A stretch of 64,000 nucleotides of DNA from the NCBI GenBank assembly GCA_965287045.1, contig OZ336886.1, forward strand, positions 18,910,001 through 18,974,000, in the 5' to 3' direction. Positions within the stretch are counted from its first letter, which is position 1. Every line of letters begins with the position of its first letter. This document shows positions 1,290-55,345 of this stretch, piece by piece. The notes below the pieces were generated by a model, which worked only from the letters and a program-made list of their open reading frames with translations, was not told the origin of the DNA and made no database searches. This DNA comes from Carcharhinus amblyrhynchos (taxonomy: Eukaryota). The translations under genes and the position numbers were made by a program.

Positions 1290-2640
1290 AGTGCAAAGTG
1301 AGGACGAGGATTGGGGATGAGGATACTGTCATTTTCAATGCTCTCAGCTATGGCCTAAGCCACAGAAGGCACAATAACGGTCTCCTCCATGGAGGACAGG
1401 ACAGGACATGCAGCATAGCTTTGTCTCTCCAGTTATCTCCTGGTACCTGCAGTCATGCACCAACTTGTCCTGAAAGAGTGGGGAAAATATGTTTGTGAGT
1501 GTGGTGCAGTTGTTATGATCGAAAATTGTAAGATGTGGGTGTGAAGCTTGCAGTGGTGTTAAATGCATGAGGGTAAAGTGAATCAGATCAATGATGTGTG
1601 AGGTCTAATTTGGCAGAAATAATAGTAGGAAGGATTACTATTTAAAGGGCGAAAAGCTGCAGCATGCTACGGTGCAGAGGGACCTGGGGGTCCTTGTGCA
1701 TGAGTCGCAAAAATCCAGTCTGCCGGTGCAGCAGGTGATCAAGGCGGCAAATGGGATGCTGGCCTTTATAACGAGGGGGATAGAATATAAAAGCAGGGAG
1801 GTCTTGCTGCAACTGTACAGGGCACTGGTGAGGCCGCAGCTGGAGTACTGAGTGCAGTTTTGGTCGCCGCACTTGCGCAAGGATATTTTGGCCTTGGAGG
1901 GAGTACAGAGGAGGTTCACTAGGCTGATACCAGAGATGAGGGGGTTGTGAAGAGAGACTAAATAGACTGGGTCTGTACTCGTTGGAGTTTAGAAGGATGA
2001 GGGGGGATCTTATAGAGATGTATAAGATAATGAAAGGGATGGATAGGGTAGAGGTAGAGAGATTCTTCCTGCTTAGAAAGGATAGCAGGACTAGAGGGCA
2101 CAGCCTCAAGATAAGGGGGGGGGGGGCAGTTTATAACGGACTTGAGGAGGAACTTCTTCACTCAAAGGGTGGTGAATCTCTGGAATTCTCTACCCGTTGA
2201 AGTGGTGGAGGCTACCTCGCTAAATATATTTAAGTCAGGGGTAGGTAGGTTTTTGACAGACAAGGGAATTAAGGGTTATGGGGAGAAAGCGGGAAAGTGG
2301 AACTGATCCACTTCAGATCAGCCAAGATCTTATTGAATGGCGGGGTAGGCTCAAAGGGCTAGATGGCCTACTCCTGCTCCTATTTCTTATGTTCTTATGT
2401 TCTTAATTGGTAGAGATGTTTGATAAGTGAATGAATGATGGGGGAATGTGGTGATCTGATCAATGCCTGAAGCCAGTGCAGTTGGCAGGATATGATAGTT
2501 GAAGATGCATTCACTTACCTTAATCACTTGCATGAGGAAATTAAACTCCTTACAGCATTGCATTTAGGCTTTTAGAGCTTGACTCTTGGCACTGCCCTCC
2601 AGGGTTTTCTGAGTGTCTGAGGACCTTGTTCTCCCGTGGG
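1290..2640 (-). mobile_element. Decayed Harbinger-type Myb/SANT gene segments (minus copy), interrupted by CR1
   Basis: Minus-strand MQCCKEFNFLMQVIK|gtaagt near 2515-2575 and ..SMEETVI.. near 1370-1395 resemble the plus-strand copy at 2700-3570. Confidence 0.5.
1631..2405 (+). mobile_element. CR1-clade LINE 3' fragment, young subfamily
   Basis: ORF2 C-terminus (LYRALVRPQLEY..., EFRRMRGDLIEMYKIMKGMDRV...TRGHSLKI) and (TTCTTATG)n tail. Very similar to 52889-53343. Confidence 0.93.
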
Positions 2641-16375: not shown

Positions 16376-16703
16376 TTATAGAATAATAGAATCCCTACAG
16401 TGTAGGAGGAGGCCATTCAGCCCATTGAGCCTGCACTGACCACAATCCCAGCCAGGCCCTATCTCCTTAGCCTCAAATATTTACCCTGCTAATCCCCCTG
16501 ACACTAAGGGGCAATTTAGCATGGCCAATCCAACTAACTCTCACATCTTTAGACTATGGGAGGAAACTGGAGCATGTGGAGGAAAACCATGCAGACACGG
16601 GGAGAATGTGCAAACTCCACACAGACAGTCATCCAAGGCCAGAATTGAATCTGGGCCCTTGGCACTATGCGGCAGCAGTGCTAACCACTGTGTCACTGTG
16701 CCA
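16376..16703 (-). mobile_element. HE1 SINE ending ~75 bp upstream of an ADGRA2 acceptor
   Basis: Head, V-domain and CACTGTAGGGATTCTATT tail. Confidence 0.9.
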
Positions 16704-16747
16704 GCTATTTTGAAACTGGTACATTAGCATTTAATCCAAAAAATTAC

Positions 16748-17040
16748 AGTGGCACAGTGGTTAGCACTGCTGACTCACAGTGCCAAGTTCGATTCTTGGG
16801 TCACTGTCTGTGCAGAGTTTGCACTTTCTCCCTGCGTCTGTGTAGGTTTCCTCTGGATGCTCCAGTTTCCTCGCACAGTCTGAAAGACGTGCTGGTTAGG
16901 TGCAGTGGCCACGTTAAATTCTCCCTCAGTGAACCTGAACAGGCACTGGAGTGTGACGACTAGGGGATTTTCACAGTAACTTCATTGAAGTGTGAATGTA
17001 AGCCTGCTTATAATTAATAAATAAACTTAAATTTTTAAAA
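16748..17040 (+). mobile_element. V-SINE with type B tail, head-to-head with the preceding HE1
   Basis: GTGGCACAGTGGTTAGCACTGCTG head; TCACAGTAACTTCATTGAAGTG..AATAAATAAACTT tail. Confidence 0.9.
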
Positions 17041-21370: not shown

Positions 21371-22524
21371 GAAGTGCTTAGATTGCCACTATATCTTGAT
21401 GCTGAATGAGGCAACTTAAATTGGGAATTTCCTGCATTGGTGTCACTTCTGCATCACTGGTATTCCCTGTTGTGGTAGCATACTTACTACAGGAGCTTTT
21501 GAAGGAGAAGTCCCACCACAGTCTTCTCAGAGCAAGAACAATGGGCAATAAGTGAAGCTTGCCAGCATTGTCAGAAAACACATTTTTAACAATCTCAGTC
21601 AGGTGTGGCGTTGTATTTGCAGGCTGGTGAAAATGTTACAGGAATTTTTAAAAGTAGGTAATCTTCATATTTTTTTCAAACTTGAAGTTTGAAATTAAAA
21701 ACATGACCTTGTTGCAATAATAACAAGTGATGAGAAGGAGGTCAGCACACAAAGTAAAATGTTTATCTGCCCATGATGTTAACATCAGCACAACCTGGAC
21801 ACTGTATTTATCATTTTTCTTAAATAATAGAGACACACAAATCACCTTGACTGCTGTATAACTTCACTATCACCATCATAAACTGCAAACAAATCTAACA
21901 AGGCCATTTGGCTCACAAATTTATTCATTGAGGTCTCAGGACGGATGGGAAGATTTGAAGAATAACAGACAACCCAAATGCAAATATTTAAGTGGCTGAA
22001 TTGAAGACAATTTTTTTATTAACAGTTGGAATGGGTCTGGCATTATCCAACTTGTGTTTGCTATACACACAACTAAATATTCTTTCCCATTCTGAAAGCT
22101 GCAAGTGGTAAATAAAGAAATCATTATAACTTGATCCTAAAATGTTTTGGGTAGTGTTGCAACAATACCCATTCAGGTGAGCAGTGAATATCCCTTCACA
22201 TTTCTGATTTAACCCTTAACCTTTTTGGAAGGAAAGAGACAGCATAGTTCTTTGACTGCTGTAATAGTGAAGAATTATTTTCCAAACTGAAAAATGGATT
22301 GCACTGAGCATTTTCTCAATGTGACTAAATCTGCACTGTGACTGTTACACAATAATGAACAATACAAGCATTGTCAATTCAAGAGCACCCATTTCACAAC
22401 CAGCAATGATAACAACTTGCAATATATAACACCATTGATATAGCAAAACATCCCAAGGTATCTCATAAGAGTGTCTTCAGATGGAGACAAGGCGATATGT
22501 GGGCAAGTGACTAAATGGTTACCA

Positions 22525-22850
22525 GGCTAGCCCATTGTAATTGGGGTATGCTGACACCTGCCATGACGGTTTGTCCAGGCTAGGTTAGAGTAACAGATCA
22601 GAGTAGCCGATGAGGTAAAACGGAGGCTTTCCCTGATGCAATTCTTCAAAGTCATCTCGGCCTTTTGGCTAAGATAGAGCATTAGATCAAGCCCACCAAG
22701 GGGTGCAATGCCTCATCCTGTCAGCTTGGATCTTATTTGATGCAATGTCCCATCTTGTGAGTCTGGATTTTGTCTGATCCTCATGTGGCCACCATGAATT
22801 GGATTCAACTTGAACTGGGCATTTTGGTTGCAATAGTAGTACCGAAAATT
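22525..22850 (+). mobile_element. Unclassified insertion containing a U2 snRNA 5'-end fragment
   Basis: TCTCGGCCTTTTGGCTAAGAT (22655-22675) is identical to U2 snRNA nt 7-27. It interrupts an L2-like relic, with a possible short TTACCA duplication at the junctions. Confidence 0.6.
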
Positions 22851-22944
22851 ACCAAAAAAAAGACCCAATAGACTTTAGGTAGCATTTTAAAGCAAAAGAG
22901 AAGTCGAGATTCAGGGAAGTTTGGGAGGAAATTCTTAACATAAC

Positions 22945-35588: not shown

Positions 35589-38232
35589 AATGTAGATTAA
35601 TAGCTCTGTACCTTTTCAGTGTAGATTAGTAGCCCTGTACACTTCCAGCGTAGATTAGTAGCACTGTACTATTCCGGTGTAGATTAGTAGCACTGTACTA
35701 TTCCAGGTAAGATTAGTAGCACTGTACTATTCCAGGTTAGATTAGTAGCACTGTACTATTCCAGTGTAGATTAGTAGCACTGTACTATTCCAGTGTAGAT
35801 TAGTAGCACTGTACTATTCCAGTGTAGATTAGTAGCACTGTACTATTCCAGTGTAGATTAGTAGCGCTGTACTATTCCAGTGTAGATTAGTAGCGCTGTA
35901 CTATTCCAGTGTAGATTAGTAGTGCTGTACTATTCCAGTGTAGATTAGTAGCACTGTACTATTCCAGTGTAGATGAGAAGCACTTTGTTATTCCAATGTA
36001 GATTAGTAACATTGTGTTATTCCAGTATTGATTAGTTACACTGTACTAATTCAATGTAGATGAGTAGCATGGTACTATGTCAGTGTAGATTAGTAGAACT
36101 GCACTATTTCAGCATAGATGAGTAGAACTGTACCATTTCAGTGTAGATGGGTAGCACTGTACTATGTCAGTGTAGATTAGTAACATTGTACGATTCCAGT
36201 GTAGATTAGTAGCACTATACTATTCCAGTGTAGATTAGTAGCACTGTACTATTCCAGTGCAGATTTGTAGCACTGTACTGTTCCAATGTAGATGAGTAGC
36301 ACTGTACAATGTCAGTGTAGATGAGTAGCATGTTACTATGTCAGTGTAGATGAGTAGCATATTACTATGTCAGTGTAGATTAGTAGCAGTGTACTGTTCC
36401 AGCGTAGATTAGTAGCACTGTACAATGTCAGTGTAGATGAGCAACACATTACTATGTCAGCGTAGATTAGTAGCACTGTAGTATTCCAGTGTAGATTAGT
36501 GGCACTGTACTATGTCAGCGTAGATTAGTAGCACTGTACTGTCAGCGTAAATGAGTAGCAGAGTCCTATTTCAGTGAAGATTAGTAGCACTGTACTATTG
36601 TAGTGTAGATTAGTAGCACTATTATTCCAGTATAGATTAGTAGCACCACACTATTCTGTGTAGATAAATAGCAATGTATTATCCTAGTGTAGATTGATAG
36701 TACTGTACTATCTCAGTATAGATTAGTGCCACTGTACTATGTCAGTGTAGATGAGTAGCACTGTACTATGTCACTATAGGTTATTAGTAATTTACAATGT
36801 AGGTATAGATTAGTAGCACTGCATTATTCAGTGTCGATTAGTAGCGATGGACTATTGCAGTGCAGATTAATAGCACTGTACTATTCCATTGTGGATGAGT
36901 AGCATTGCACTACGTCAATGTAGATTAGTTGCACTGTACTATGTCAGCATACATTAGGAGCAATGTACTATTTCAATGTAGATTAGTGGCACTGTAATAT
37001 TTCAGTGTAGATTGGTGGCACTGCACTGTCAGGGTAGATTAGTAGCACTGTAATATTTCAGTGTAGATTAGTGGCACTGTAGTATGTCAGTGTAGATTAG
37101 TGGCACTGTGCTATTTCAATCTAGATTTGTGACACCGTACAATGTCAGTGTAGGTTAGTAGCACTGCACTATTCAGTGTAAATTAGTAGCAATGGACAAT
37201 TGCAGTGTACTATTCCAGTGTAGATGAGTAGCACTGTACTATGTTAATGTAGATTAGTGGCACTGTACTGTGTCAGTGTAGATGAGTAGCACTGTACTGT
37301 TCCAGTGTAGATGAGTAGCACCGTACTGTTCCAGTGTAGATGAGTAGCACCGTACTATTCCAGTGTAGATGAGTAGAACTGTACTATTTCACTGTAGATT
37401 AGTAGCACTGTACTACTTCAGTGTAGATTAGTGGCACTGTACTATTCCAGTGTAGATTAGTGGCACTGTACTATTCCAGTGTAGATGAGTGGCACTGTAC
37501 TATTCTAGAGTAGTTGAGTAGCACTGTACTATATCAGTGTAGATTAGTAGCACTGTACTATTCCAGTGTAGATGAGTAGCACTGTACTATTCTAGTGTAG
37601 ATGAGTAGCACTGTACTATTTCACTGTAGATTAGTAGCACTGTACTATTTCAGTGTAGATTAGTGGCACTGTACTATTCCAGTGTAGATGAGTAGCACTG
37701 TACTATATCAGTGTAGATGAGTAGCACTGTACTATATCAGTGTAGATGAGTAGCACTGTATTATTCTAGTGCAGATGAGCAGCACTGTACTATATCAGTG
37801 TAGATGAGTAGCACTGTACTATTCCAGTGTAGATGAGTAGCACTGTACTATTCCAGTGTAGATGAGTAGCACTATACTATTCCAGTGTAGATGGGAAGAC
37901 TGTGTTATTCCAGTGTAGATTAGTAACTTTGTATTACTCCAGTATAGATTAGTAGCACTATACTATGTCAATGTAGATGAGTAGCACAGTACTATGTCAG
38001 TGTAGATGAGTAGCACTGTACTATTCCAGTGTAGATTAGCAGCACTATACTATTCCTGTGTAGATTGGTAGCACTGTACTATTTCAGTGTAGCTGAGAAG
38101 CACTGTGTTATTCCAGTGTAGATTAGTAACATTGTACTATTCCCATTTAGATTAGTAGCACTGTATGATGTCAGTGTAGATTAGTAGCACTTTACTATAA
38201 ATGTAGATTAGTAGACCTGTACTATTTCAGTG
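35589..38232. repeat. Tandem array of a 29-bp unit (~90 copies), consensus AGTGTAGATTAGTAGCACTGTACTATTCC
   Basis: Unit starts recur at 35763, 35792 and 35821 (period 29). Near-perfect blocks at ~35700-35960 and ~37290-37870, more degenerate elsewhere. Confidence 0.97.
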
Positions 38233-42869: not shown

Positions 42870-43650
42870 CCATAGCCTTCTTGAGCTGCTGCCATCCACC
42901 TGGTGTAGATATACTCTTGGTCGTGTGAGGAAGGGAGTTCCAGATTTTTAACCCAGTAACACTGAAAGAACTGCAATATAATTTCAAGATGTGGATATGC
43001 CGGTGTTGGACTGGGGTAAACACAGCAAAAAGTCTGACAACACCCGGTTTAAGTCCAACCGATTTATTTGATAGTAAACTCACTAGCTTTCGAGGTTTCA
43101 CCCTTCGTCAGGTGAACTCTCCATTCACCTGACGAAGAGGGAAACCTCGAAAGCTAGTGAGTTTACTATCAAATAAATCAGTTGGACTTAAACCAGGTGT
43201 TGTCAGACTTTTTATTATATAATTTCAAATCAGGATGATGTGTCACTTGGTGGGGAACTTGCAGGTGGTGGTGGTGTTGCCATGCATTTGCTGCTCTTCA
43301 AGTTGGCAAAGGCCACTGGTTTGGTAGGTCCTGTTAAAGGAGGCTTGGTGAGTGACTGCAGTGCATCGTTAGTTAGTACACACTACTGCCACTATGTTCC
43401 AGTAGAGGAGGCATTAAATGATTAAGGGTGATGGATGAGGGGCAAATTAATTGATCTGCAGTGTTCAAGTTTCTTGAGTGTTTGGTAGAGCTGTACTCAT
43501 CCAAGCAAGTGGGGAACATTCCATTACACTTCTGACTTGTGCCTTTTAGGACAGATATTGGAGAGTCTCTGTCCTGCTCTTGTAACCGTAGTATTTACAC
43601 GGCTAGTCCAGTTCCATTTCTGGTCAATGGTAACCTCCCAGAATGTTGGC
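42870..43650 (-). mobile_element. Old CR1/L2-group LINE 3' end, host of the hammerhead palindrome and likely partner of SINE type C
   Basis: KIWNSLP..QQLKKA segment. Same family at 63595-63915 (-); tail fragment at 51638-51730 (+). Confidence 0.75.
42988..43216. mobile_element. Non-autonomous Penelope-like palindromic element with two opposed minimal hammerhead ribozyme cores
   Basis: 90-bp arms 43027-43116 / 43124-43213. CTGACGA-A-GAGG-GAAA-CCTC-GAAA-GCT-A-GTGA at 43129-43160. 12-bp TSD ATATAATTTCAA at 42976-42987 and 43217-43228. Confidence 0.85.
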
Positions 43651-52771: not shown

Positions 52772-54395
52772 CATAGAGTCATAGAGGTTTACAACATGGA
52801 AACAAGCCCTTCTGTCCAACTTGCCCATGCCGACTAGTTTTTACTATAAAGTTAGTGCCAATTGCCCATATCCCTCAATACCCATCTTGGACTATGAAGA
52901 GAGACTAAATAGACTGGGTCTGTACTCGTTGGAGTTTAGAAGGATGAGGGGAGATCTTATAGAGACGTATAAGGTAATGAAGGGGATGGATAGGGTAGAG
53001 GTAGAGAGATTCTTCCCGCTCAGAAAGGACAGCAGGACTAGAGGGCACAGCCTCAAGATAAGGGGAGGGCAGTTTAGAATGGAGTTGAGGAGGAACTTCT
53101 TCACTCAAAGGGTGGTGGATCTCTGGAATTCTCTGCCCATTGAAGTGGTGGAGGCTACCTCGCTAAATATATTTAAGACACGGGAAAATAGGTTTTTGGT
53201 AGGCAAGGGAATTAAGGGTTATGGGGAGAAAGCGGGAAAGTGGAACTGAGCCACTTCAGATCAGCCATGATCTTATTGAATGACGGGGCAGGCTCGAAGG
53301 GCTAGATGGCCTACTCCTGCTTCTATTTCTTATGTGCTTATGTACCCATGAAATTGCCTAAATGCTTTTTAAAAGACAAAATTGCACCCACCTCTACTAC
53401 TACCTCTGACAGTTCCTTTCAGACACACCATCCTGTGTGAGAAAAAATTGCCCTCTGGATCCTTTCGTTTCTCTCTCCTCACACCTTAAACTTATGCCCT
53501 CTAGTTTTAGACTCCCCGACCTTTCGGAAAAGATATTGACTATCTACCTTATTTATTCCCCTCATTATTTTACAGACCCCTATAAGATCACCACCTCAGC
53601 CTTTTACACTACAGGGAAAGAAGTCCCAGACTATCCAGCCTCTCCTTATAATGCGAACTATCAAGCCCCGGGAACATCCTAGTAAGTCTTTACTAAACTA
53701 GAAAGAGTGCAAATATGTCCTTTCTATAGTAGGGTAACCACAATTGTACACAGTATTCCAAGTGTGGCCTTAGCAATGTCTTGTACAATTTCAACAAGAT
53801 GTCCCAACTCCTGTATTCAGTGTTTTGACCAATAAAGTCATGTGCTGAATACCTTCTTCACTACCCTGTCCATCTGTGACTCCACTTTCAAGGCGCTATG
53901 AACCTGTACTCCTTGATCTCATTGTTCTCTAACTCTCCACAACACCCTACCATTAACTTTCGATCTATCAAAATGCATCACGTTGCATTTATCTAAATCA
54001 AACTCCATCTGCCAGTCATCAGCCCACTGGTTCAATTGATTTACATCCTGTTGCAACCCTAGATAACCTTCTTCACTGTCCACTATGCCACCAATTTTGG
54101 TGTAATCTGCAAACTTACTAACCATGCCTCCTAAATTTTCATCCAAATCATTAATATAAATGACAATTAACAGTGGACCCAACACCGATCCCTGAGGCAC
54201 ACCACTGGTCACAGGCCTCCAGTTTGAAAAATAACCTCTACAACCACCCTCTATCTTCCATCGCCAAGCCAATTTTGTATCCAATTGCTACCTCACCCTG
54301 GATCCCTTGAGATTTAACTTTATGCAACAGCCTGCTATAGGGTACCTTGCCAAAGTCTATGTAGACGACATTGACAGCGCTGCCCTCATCTGCCA
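52772..54395 (-). mobile_element. HER1/CR1 LINE 3' fragment with a nested plus-strand young CR1 (52889-53343)
   Basis: WRPVTSGVPQGSVLGPLL..YINDLD..SKFAD on the minus strand. The nested copy has an open ORF2 end YEERLNRLGLYSLEFRRMRGDLIETYK..GYGEKAGKWN. Confidence 0.93.
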
Positions 54396-54577: not shown

Positions 54578-54920
54578 CATAGGATCGTTGCAGTGCAGAT
54601 GGAGGCCATTCAGCCCATCCAGTCTGCACACAAAGAGCATCTTACTCAGGCCCATCTCCTATTCCCTTAACACTGCGCATTTACCATGGCTAATCCACCT
54701 AACATACATATCTTTGGACACTAAGTGGCAATTTACCATGGCCAATCCACTTTACCTGCATACCTTTGGACTGTGGGAGGAAACCGGAGCACCGGGAGGA
54801 AACCCTAGCAGACACAGGAGGAATGTGCAAACTCCACACAGACAGTGACCCAAGGCTGGAATTGAATCTGTACCCTTAGCACTGTGAACAGCAGTGCTAA
54901 CCACTGTGCTACCATGCCAC
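54578..54920 (-). mobile_element. HE1 SINE
   Basis: Full head, V-domain and tail. Confidence 0.9.
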
Positions 54921-55058
54921 CCCACCACCCCAAACTTTATTTTAATGTCAAATTTTTATCATGATGGAGAAATTTGAAATTCCACAAATGCGAAATTACT
55001 TTTTCACGGCGAATGAGGAATATAGAGATTCTGTGATTCTGTGACACCATAGCCTTTT

Positions 55059-55345
55059 GGGGTGGCAGGTGGCACAGTGGTTAGCACTGCTGCCTTACAT
55101 CGCCAGAGCCTAGGTTTGATTCCCAGCTTGGGTCACTGTCTGTGTGGAGTCTGCACATTCTCCCCGTGTCTACATGGGTTTCCTCTAGGTGCTCCGTTTT
55201 CTCTCACAGTCTGAAAGACGTGCTGGTTAGGTGCATTGGCCGTGCTAAATTCTCCACCAGTGTACCTGAACAGGCACTGGAGTGTGGTGACTAGGAGATT
55301 TTTTACAATAACTCCATTGCAGTGTTAATGTAAGTTGACTTGTGA
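55059..55345 (+). mobile_element. V-SINE with type B tail, head-to-head with the preceding HE1
   Basis: GGTGGCACAGTGGTTAGCACTGCTGCC head; CATTGCAGTGTTAATGTAAG tail. Confidence 0.88.

What the first reader, a model, noticed from the sequence alone, without database searches (positions are those of the whole stretch)
22525..22850. Composite insertion: candidate HDV-like ribozyme head plus U2 snRNA 5' end plus unknown tail
Seen: a 21-nt exact match to U2 snRNA nt 7-27 (22655-22675), followed by a U2-like AGATCAAG, inside a ~330-bp segment interrupting an L2-like relic (possible TTACCA duplication). Upstream, 22543-22601 can be drawn in HDV-ribozyme order: P1 GGGTA/TGTCC, P2 CTGA/TCAG, P3 ACC/GGT, L3 starting with U and containing CC able to pair with GG at 22578-79, and C-A-G-A (C at 22594) before the P2 3' strand. 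P4 and the +1 pair are degraded. Established: Keno (Tx1) and Utopia retrotransposons target U2 genes, crocodilian SINEU elements have snRNA-derived heads, and HDV-like ribozymes process 5' ends of several non-LTR elements. Inference: possibly an undescribed shark short retroelement using a self-cleaving 5' end and a captured U2 segment.
Basis: partly seen in the sequence, partly recalled or inferred. Interest (0 to 1): 0.72.

Follow-up and report, generated by a model that had tools for sequence, protein, structure and literature searches.

The report
Jumping element stitched from three snRNAs
This is one decayed copy of a repeated short DNA element pieced together from fragments of the U1, U4 and U2 splicing RNAs, likely spread by a LINE retrotransposon's enzymes; the proposed self-cutting ribozyme at its front is not a feature of the family.

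Summary
The U2 match is real (21 of 21); the ribozyme is not. The 'HDV head' is U1 nt 52-96, a relic of a second U1 piece and U4 nt 23-47. The proposed catalytic C occurs in 1 of 50 copies, this one, and the drawn pairs do not covary. The 'unknown tail' is remodelled U2. Window 22521-22861 is a 5'-truncated copy of a dispersed, A-tailed family with target-site duplications (11 of 80 and 12 of 27 copies against 2-3% chance). Three subfamilies share a U4-U2 body under different heads: major U1, a variant U1 gene, or U2. The wider family has roughly 29,000 copies (11,000-64,000). A body hairpin shows compensatory changes between subfamilies. An intact U2-targeting Keno-like LINE exists in the genome, but the evidence that it is the partner is mixed. 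It works like crocodilian SINEU; the U4 piece and a probable shark host are not in the papers I searched. Repbase and Dfam were unavailable. The scan noted this family before, in this genome and others.

The parts
22403..22520 (+). Upstream half of the older host repeat (L2-like by recall) into which the element inserted
   Evidence: 10 matches in the genome, self included; profile hit E 2.7e-20; continues in the downstream flank when the insert is left out
22521..22565 (+). U1 snRNA nt 52-96 (most of stem-loop II and the start of III; loop names recalled). 5'-truncated head of subfamily A; full copies begin at U1 nt 1 and lack nt 39-49
   Evidence: 37 of 45 to the genome's U1 gene, score 58, resampled maximum 31; majority line 81 of 85
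22566..22587 (+). Relic of an older U1 head (U1 nt 38-60), the head of subfamily D
   Evidence: 19 of 22 in the A majority line, score 27, not significant alone; colinear with subfamily D, whose head is 56 of 59 to a variant U1 gene
22588..22602 (+). Decayed duplicate of variant-U1 nt 20-34; holds the proposed catalytic C22594, which is private to this insertion
   Evidence: 15 of 15 to variant U1 in the D majority line; column is A in 40, G in 8, C in 1, gap in 1 of 50 copies
22603..22627 (+). U4 snRNA nt 23-47 (5' stem-loop, the kink-turn region by recall)
   Evidence: Window 22589-22627 scores 40 against U4 (null 99th percentile 34, maximum 39 of 1000); D majority line has 26 identical letters in a row, score 55, null maximum 40
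22628..22654 (+). T-rich linker, U4-like (either nt 49-67 or the Sm-site region nt 116-131); origin not resolved
   Evidence: 13 of 16 to U4 nt 116-131, score 20, below the null; alternative alignment
22655..22675 (+). U2 snRNA nt 7-27 (stem-loop I)
   Evidence: 21 of 21
22684..22733 (+). Body hairpin module, remodelled from U2 nt ~23-72; decayed in this copy
   Evidence: Five majority modules fold at z -2.2 to -4.1, the U2 counterpart at -0.8, this copy at -0.2; covariation
22734..22770 (+). Second, tandem hairpin module with a 17-base deletion in this copy
   Evidence: Alignment to the A majority line; duplication present in most A copies, absent in some
22771..22820 (+). U2 nt ~60-113-derived segment
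   Evidence: 34 of 47 in this copy, score 27; majority line 57 of 79 over U2 nt 23-102, score 52
22821..22861 (+). Family 3' end and A-rich tail; contains the downstream TTACCA
   Evidence: an AATAAA/ATTAAA lies near the end in 36 of 54 A and 17 of 31 D copies, 5 of 27 B
22862..22932 (+). Downstream half of the host repeat
   Evidence: E 0.15 alone; adds 15 bits when joined to the upstream half

Best explanation
The segment is a 5'-truncated copy of a dispersed, non-coding, A-tailed repeat family built from U1, U4 and U2 snRNA fragments, likely copied and pasted by the reverse transcriptase and endonuclease of an A-tailed LINE, probably of the Tx1/Keno kind. Shown: the mosaic, the copy number, target-site duplications of about 7-20 bases, and three subfamilies with one body and three heads. 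Inferred history: a U2 retrocopy was remodelled into a hairpin-bearing body, gained a U4 piece, and then gained U2, variant-U1 or major-U1 heads, likely by template switching during reverse transcription; subfamily A is a major-U1 head added on a truncated D element. Inferred: masters are read by RNA polymerase II from outside promoters (a U2 or U1 gene, or any host transcript) and polyadenylated; the body hairpin is likely kept by selection, perhaps as the handle for the LINE enzyme. This copy is an old, probably inert insertion shared by several related organisms.
For: Mosaic: against the genome's own U1, U2, U4 and U5 genes. Variant-U1 head: 6 of 18 U1 loci fetched, all on C40, carry the D-type first stem. 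Dispersal: 2601 candidates, 40 scored; 68 exact matches of a 20-mer, reversed control 0; 6 family copies in 600 kb taken at fixed positions. Common ends: 77 of 112 rows start within 10 nt of the majority 5' end, and 67 of 112 have a run of five A at the 3' end. TSD score 7 or more: 11 of 80 A/D rows against 2.4%, 12 of 27 B copies against 3%. Hairpin: 67 cells changed on both sides against 31 +/- 6, 0 of 500 shuffles. Partner candidate: an intact two-ORF LINE (RVT_1, Exo_endo_phos) sits in a U2 array between U2 nt 1-57 and nt 38 onward; one dispersed copy begins with U2 nt 25-56 (L201); older relatives abut the U2 head of B copies (L065, L211); 4 family copies lie in 3 of 19 such LINE loci, p 0.004 to 0.05. 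Age: mean 88-91% identity to majority lines; the same junction is bridged by contigs in 3 of 4 other-organism runs laid.
Against: Partner unproven: the element's 3' end is not significantly like the Keno-like 3' end (p 0.09-0.56); Keno-like DNA lies near only 2 of 112 element loci (358 kb) against 2 of 60 background stretches (600 kb); most copies are not in U2 genes and share no flank. No master or promoter found: 0 hits between snRNA upstream regions and the 300 bases above 77 full-length rows. Hairpin covariation rests on about four to five independent changes among related subfamilies, the number of covarying pairs is 8 against 8.0 in shuffles, and module copies were picked by likeness to the majority. 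In this copy alone the U4 score (40) barely passes the null maximum (39). No TSD in this copy.
Confidence: 0.85

Rival explanations
1. A retroelement whose 5' end is cut by an HDV-like ribozyme.
For: The helices can be drawn in HDV order in this copy and CAGA fits the CRRA motif (motif from PMC6326823). 84.7% of cells pair across 50 copies, because the copies resemble the sequence it was drawn on.
Against: Catalytic C in 1 of 50 copies; second P1.1 pair formed in 8.9% of cells; covariation 0.172 against 0.170 +/- 0.007. P1 has 5 pairs rather than 7, and L3 lacks the U-C-C-N-C-G pattern of PMC6326823. No Rfam HDV-type family at E <= 10 here or E <= 1 in 20 loci. The region is mid-element: about 60 element bases lie upstream of the supposed cut in full copies. 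An orthologue carries a 7-base duplication between the P2 and P3 strands.
Confidence: 0.02
2. A heap of independent chimeric snRNA retropseudogenes made by template switching, not a self-propagating family.
For: Extra U1 or U2 pieces are added at the 5' end of several copies (L114, L121, L124, L166); A copies differ in the number of hairpin modules.
Against: Dozens of copies share the same junctions, the same 11-base U1 deletion and the same non-U2 substitutions, which needs common master copies.
Confidence: 0.05
3. The body is the relic of a real, lineage-specific chimeric small nuclear RNA gene with a cellular job, and the copies are its processed pseudogenes.
For: Majority lines fold well (z -4.1 to -4.9, partly owed to inherited snRNA stems); the hairpin covaries; three B copies lie beside U4 genes.
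Against: No copy is over 95% like its majority line; the U4-cluster copies are 86% like it and were duplicated with their flanks; no snRNA-type upstream sequence.
Confidence: 0.06

Closest known systems
SINEU-1, -2, -3 of crocodilians (Kojima 2015, PMC4494074; parts 1-4 of 5 of the text read, figures and supplements not seen)
   Same: U1- or U2-derived heads, recurrent 5' additions on a shared body, A tail, TSDs, internal T runs, under 500 bases, tandem copies, unknown promoter, Tx1 as suspected partner.
   Different: That paper found no SINEU outside crocodilians and names only U1 and U2. Here a U4 piece is part of the shared body, the body is remodelled U2 with a covarying hairpin, one head comes from a variant U1 gene, and no preferred target repeat is evident. 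Sequence homology to SINEU could not be tested; independent origin is inferred.
Keno (Tx1 clade) and Utopia, U2-targeting LINEs (PMC4640811; section 6 and passages read)
   Same: A Keno-like LINE in this genome has U2 from nt 38 as its 3' flank (the paper gives nt 39 for oomycete Utopia and says Keno shares the site); the U2 head of subfamily B ends at about nt 37-40.
   Different: The finding codes for nothing, shares no significant sequence with that LINE and is not inserted in a U2 gene.
HDV-like ribozymes (features from PMC6326823, passages read)
   Same: Only the order in which short helices can be drawn in this one copy, and a CAGA.
   Different: P1 length, L3 pattern, P1.1 and the catalytic C fail across the family.
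U6/LINE-1 and other snRNA chimeric retrocopies (bioRxiv 10.1101/2025.02.02.635956, abstract start and one passage seen; also discussed in PMC4494074)
   Same: snRNA sequence joined 5' of another RNA during reverse transcription.
   Different: Those are one-off chimeras; here junctions are inherited by whole subfamilies.

Membership tests
SINEU | 5' head derived from U1 or U2 snRNA | tested here: met
   A 81 of 85 to U1; D 56 of 59 to variant U1; B 40 of 42 to U2
SINEU | Many dispersed copies with shared structure, not independent chimeras | tested here: met
SINEU | 3' poly(A) tail | tested here: met
   Run of five A at the end in 29 of 54 A, 16 of 31 D, 22 of 27 B
SINEU | Short (under 500 bases) | tested here: met
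   Majority lines 393, 285 and 305 bases
SINEU | Recurrent 5' addition of U1/U2 pieces on a shared body | tested here: met
   Subfamilies A, B, D and single copies with extra heads
SINEU | Target-site duplications | tested here: met
   11 of 80 and 12 of 27 against 2.4% and 3%; none in this copy
SINEU | No recognisable promoter; internal oligo-T | tested here: inconclusive
   T runs are in all majority lines; no snRNA upstream match above 77 rows; polymerase III boxes not scanned
SINEU | Shared target preference with a Tx1 family | tested here: inconclusive
   No common flank among 113 rows; mixed co-location with the Keno-like LINE
SINEU | Sequence homology with crocodilian SINEU bodies | not testable with these tools
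   Repbase and Dfam are not held; the paper's figures and supplements were not seen
HDV-like ribozyme | 7-pair P1 starting at G1 | tested here: not met
   5 pairs, two of them G-U (feature)
HDV-like ribozyme | L3 with U, CC, C, G at fixed places | tested here: not met
   Loop reads U-G-C-C-A-U; strict descriptor 0 of 86 rows
HDV-like ribozyme | P1.1 of two C-G pairs | tested here: not met
   Second pair formed in 8.9% of cells, C in 2 of 50 copies
HDV-like ribozyme | Conserved catalytic C in CRRA | tested here: not met
   C in 1 of 50 copies
HDV-like ribozyme | Self-cleavage | not testable with these tools
   Needs an in vitro assay
Keno / Utopia | 3' flank is a U2 gene from nt 38-39; codes for RT | tested here: not met
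   This copy is flanked by another repeat and has no match to the Keno-like LINE

The most novel reading that the evidence does not exclude
An independently evolved snRNA-mosaic SINE that solves the promoter problem by landing in U2 genes at the Keno site, riding the U2 promoter (hence U2 heads ending at nt 37-40), and that keeps snRNP-protein-binding modules (U1 loops, U4 kink-turn) plus a newly evolved, selected hairpin to dock onto the LINE enzyme. The intact Keno-like LINE in this genome would make the open question of how SINEU elements are transcribed and mobilised directly testable.
Probability: 0.2. Interest if true: 0.7.

Novelty: new variant of a known kind. Interest (0 to 1): 0.45.

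Why it matters
snRNA-headed SINEs were described from crocodilians only, with transcription left as an open question (PMC4494074). A second, abundant family in what is probably a cartilaginous fish, with a U4 module, traceable donor genes for each head and a covarying hairpin, would show that promoter-less spliceosomal RNAs can give rise to SINE-like elements more than once. An intact candidate partner LINE allows a direct test. Tens of thousands of U1/U2-like fragments also matter for snRNA annotation in these genomes. The ribozyme, which gave the finding its first appeal, is not there.

Tried and rejected
Rfam on the whole window at gathering scores: 0 matches. HDV ribozyme: rejected; folding of 22521-22700 is unremarkable, z -0.70, and the program cannot form pseudoknots. 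TTACCA as TSD: rejected. U5 as a donor: no significant match; U6, U11 and U12 were not fetched. The compensatory changes in the D head first looked like selection on the element; they come from a variant U1 gene. The U4-cluster copies as masters: rejected. LINE-derived tail: not significant. First-look candidate counts of RNA searches are not copy numbers; U5 gives as many. Expression: no RNA holder listed. Run X12 gave no laid contig and X14, X15 only family fragments. Rows dropped: L093, L095, L100, L103 (same places as earlier loci); L187, L158, L159 before the B majority line and L187, L159 before the B counts; L108 duplicates the L022 copy and was dropped. Paper searches with no shark or U4-bearing SINEU seen in the listings: (23 papers hold the word SINEU, 21 listed). 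Passages on SINEU in PMC5786205, PMC4758252 and PMC5381603 add no such family; PMC5499810 on shark SINEs has no 'snRNA'. A look-up of earlier notes by sequence gave nothing.

Full report
Observation. Against this genome's own U2 gene, 22655-22675 is nt 7-27, 21 of 21. A search of the genome with 22525-22850 gave 2601 candidates; the 40 scored gave 43 matches on many contigs. The segment is therefore a repeat, and the U2 piece and the upstream part travel together in the 30 loci aligned.

What the head is. Aligned copies extend about 40 bases further 5' than the window copy and begin like U1. Rfam gave U1 matches in 3 of 20 loci, best E 0.0055, all below the gathering score, and no HDV-type family. 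I fetched the genome's U1, U4, U2 and U5 genes and aligned them, with resampled sequence as the null. The majority line of the window's subfamily (A) is U1 nt 1-96 without nt 39-49 (81 of 85, score 139), then a weak second U1 piece (nt 38-60), U4 nt 17-47 (28 of 31, score 43), U2 nt 7-31 (24 of 25, score 46) and U2 nt 23-102 (57 of 79, score 52); the null's maximum in 1000 draws was 39. In the window copy U1 nt 52-96 lies at 22521-22565 and U4 at about 22603-22627. The 'ribozyme' covers the U1 piece, the U1 relic and its duplicate.

The ribozyme test. Features were taken from PMC6326823 (passages): 7-pair P1, fixed U, CC, C, G in L3, two C-G pairs in P1.1, CRRA in J4/2. In 50 aligned A copies the proposed catalytic position is A in 40, G in 8, C in 1 (this copy), gap in 1; the second C of P1.1 is C in 2; all five core letters occur together only here. 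Pair counts equal the shuffles. The drawing is an accident of decay in one insertion.

Subfamilies. Second copies next to L016 and L022 had other heads, and relatives lie beside the U4 genes. Searches with these gave subfamily D and B. D has a short U1 head that is 56 of 59 identical to a variant U1 found in 6 of the 18 U1 loci fetched, all on C40, then a 15-of-15 duplicate of that variant's nt 20-34, then 26 letters identical to U4 nt 23-48. A is D truncated near U1 nt 38 with a major-type U1 added in front. B has U2 nt 1 to about 37-40 as its head and a more diverged U4 piece (34 of 50, score 29, not significant alone). Mean identity to the majority lines is 88.4% (55 A rows), 87.9% (31 D) and 90.6% (27 B); these were top-scoring or pattern-selected copies, so the family is probably older than that suggests.

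Marks of retrotransposition. Copies end in an A-rich tail, often after AATAAA or ATTAAA in A and D. A junction-anchored test found repeats scoring 7 or more in 11 of 80 A/D rows (null 2.4%, p 3e-6) and 12 of 27 B copies (null 3%), up to 15 and 20 bases long. The window copy shows none; its TTACCA pair is element sequence at both ends. It sits in an older repeat whose halves join up when the insert is left out (75.6 against 60.5 bits).

Abundance and age. A 20-mer of A occurs exactly 68 times, reversed control 0; 7 of the first 30 loci carry it, which puts A at several hundred copies or more. Sixty 10-kb stretches at fixed positions held 6 family copies, 2 of B type and 4 with only the U2-derived body, giving about 29,000 (11,000-64,000) for the wider family. 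In public runs of four other coded organisms from four studies, 1278-1733 contigs per run were laid on the region, and single contigs bridge the 5' junction in 3 of the 4 with 6-19 differences. The insertion predates the split of those organisms.

Body hairpin. The five majority modules fold into the same long hairpin at z -2.2 to -4.1; the matching U2 stretch does not (z -0.8). In 60 module copies, 67 cells change on both sides against 31 +/- 6, and the covariation score is 0.229 against 0.165, 0 of 500 shuffles; the number of covarying pairs, 8, equals the shuffles. The signal comes from about four to five changes between related subfamilies, so it is moderate evidence of selection on master RNAs.

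Partner. A LINE fragment in a B copy's U2 head led to an intact element with open frames of 419 and 1190 codons, stop to stop (zinc knuckle; AP-type endonuclease and RT), inserted in a 407-base U2 array between U2 nt 1-57 and nt 38 onward. This fits Keno as described in PMC4640811 and PMC4494074. One dispersed copy starts with U2 nt 25-56, as expected if Keno RNA starts in U2. For a link: B heads end at about that site, older Keno relatives abut B heads in L065 and L211, and 4 family copies lie in 63 kb around 19 LINE hits (p 0.004-0.05). Against: no significant tail likeness, no excess of Keno near 112 element loci, no U2 target in most flanks. I put a Tx1-type partner at about 0.55, with L1 the main alternative (inference).

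Comparison. The family works like crocodilian SINEU (PMC4494074) and meets every structural feature I could test; shared ancestry could not be tested. That paper reports U1 and U2 only and no SINEU outside crocodilians. Eight searches of the open literature showed no shark or U4-bearing family in their listings; subscription papers, Repbase, Dfam and the supplements of PMC4494074 were not seen and may hold it. The host being a shark is not shown by my calls. Earlier notes of this scan describe the same kind of family in this and other genomes; they are not independent support.

Verdict. A real element, a mistaken mechanism: an snRNA-mosaic SINE-like retroposon, new variant of a known kind, interest 0.45.

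Noticed in passing
G000:C98 (L155, L208, L209) and C334 (L210): Tandem array of a variant U2 (88% to the main U2) with a 407-base period, repeatedly interrupted by near-identical, intact Keno-like LINEs with a duplication of about U2 nt 38-57.
   Followed up: partly
G000:C40 (L138, L140-L142, L144, L154): Cluster of variant U1 genes with compensatory changes in the first stem and shared upstream sequence; donor of the D head.
   Followed up: partly
G000:C3:40378000-40385000 (L062, L063): U4 gene cluster duplicated in tandem together with a B-type element and a Tx1-like 3' relic on the opposite strand (Tx1 label from a recalled motif).
   Followed up: partly
L065:3498-4510 and L211:505-5792: Keno-like fragments inserted at or joined to the U2 head of B copies near U2 nt 27-33; L211 is B, LINE, B in one orientation, possibly template jumping.
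   Followed up: partly
L225, L238, L250, L267: A further subfamily: the U2-derived body followed by a longer shared 3' part, with no U1 or U4 seen; 4 of the 6 background copies, so perhaps the commonest form.
   Followed up: no
G000:C45:1851000-1959000: Main U2 array with a period of about 10.5 kb.
   Followed up: no
window 35591-38232: Tandem array with a 29-base unit, about 90 units.
   Followed up: no
window 43027-43213, 16502-16931, 54730-55251: Stretches that match their own reverse complement (92%, 73%, 71%), possibly MITE-like or inverted repeat pairs.
   Followed up: no
window 1948-2400 and 52895-53343: Two 450-base copies 93% alike: a young repeat.
   Followed up: no
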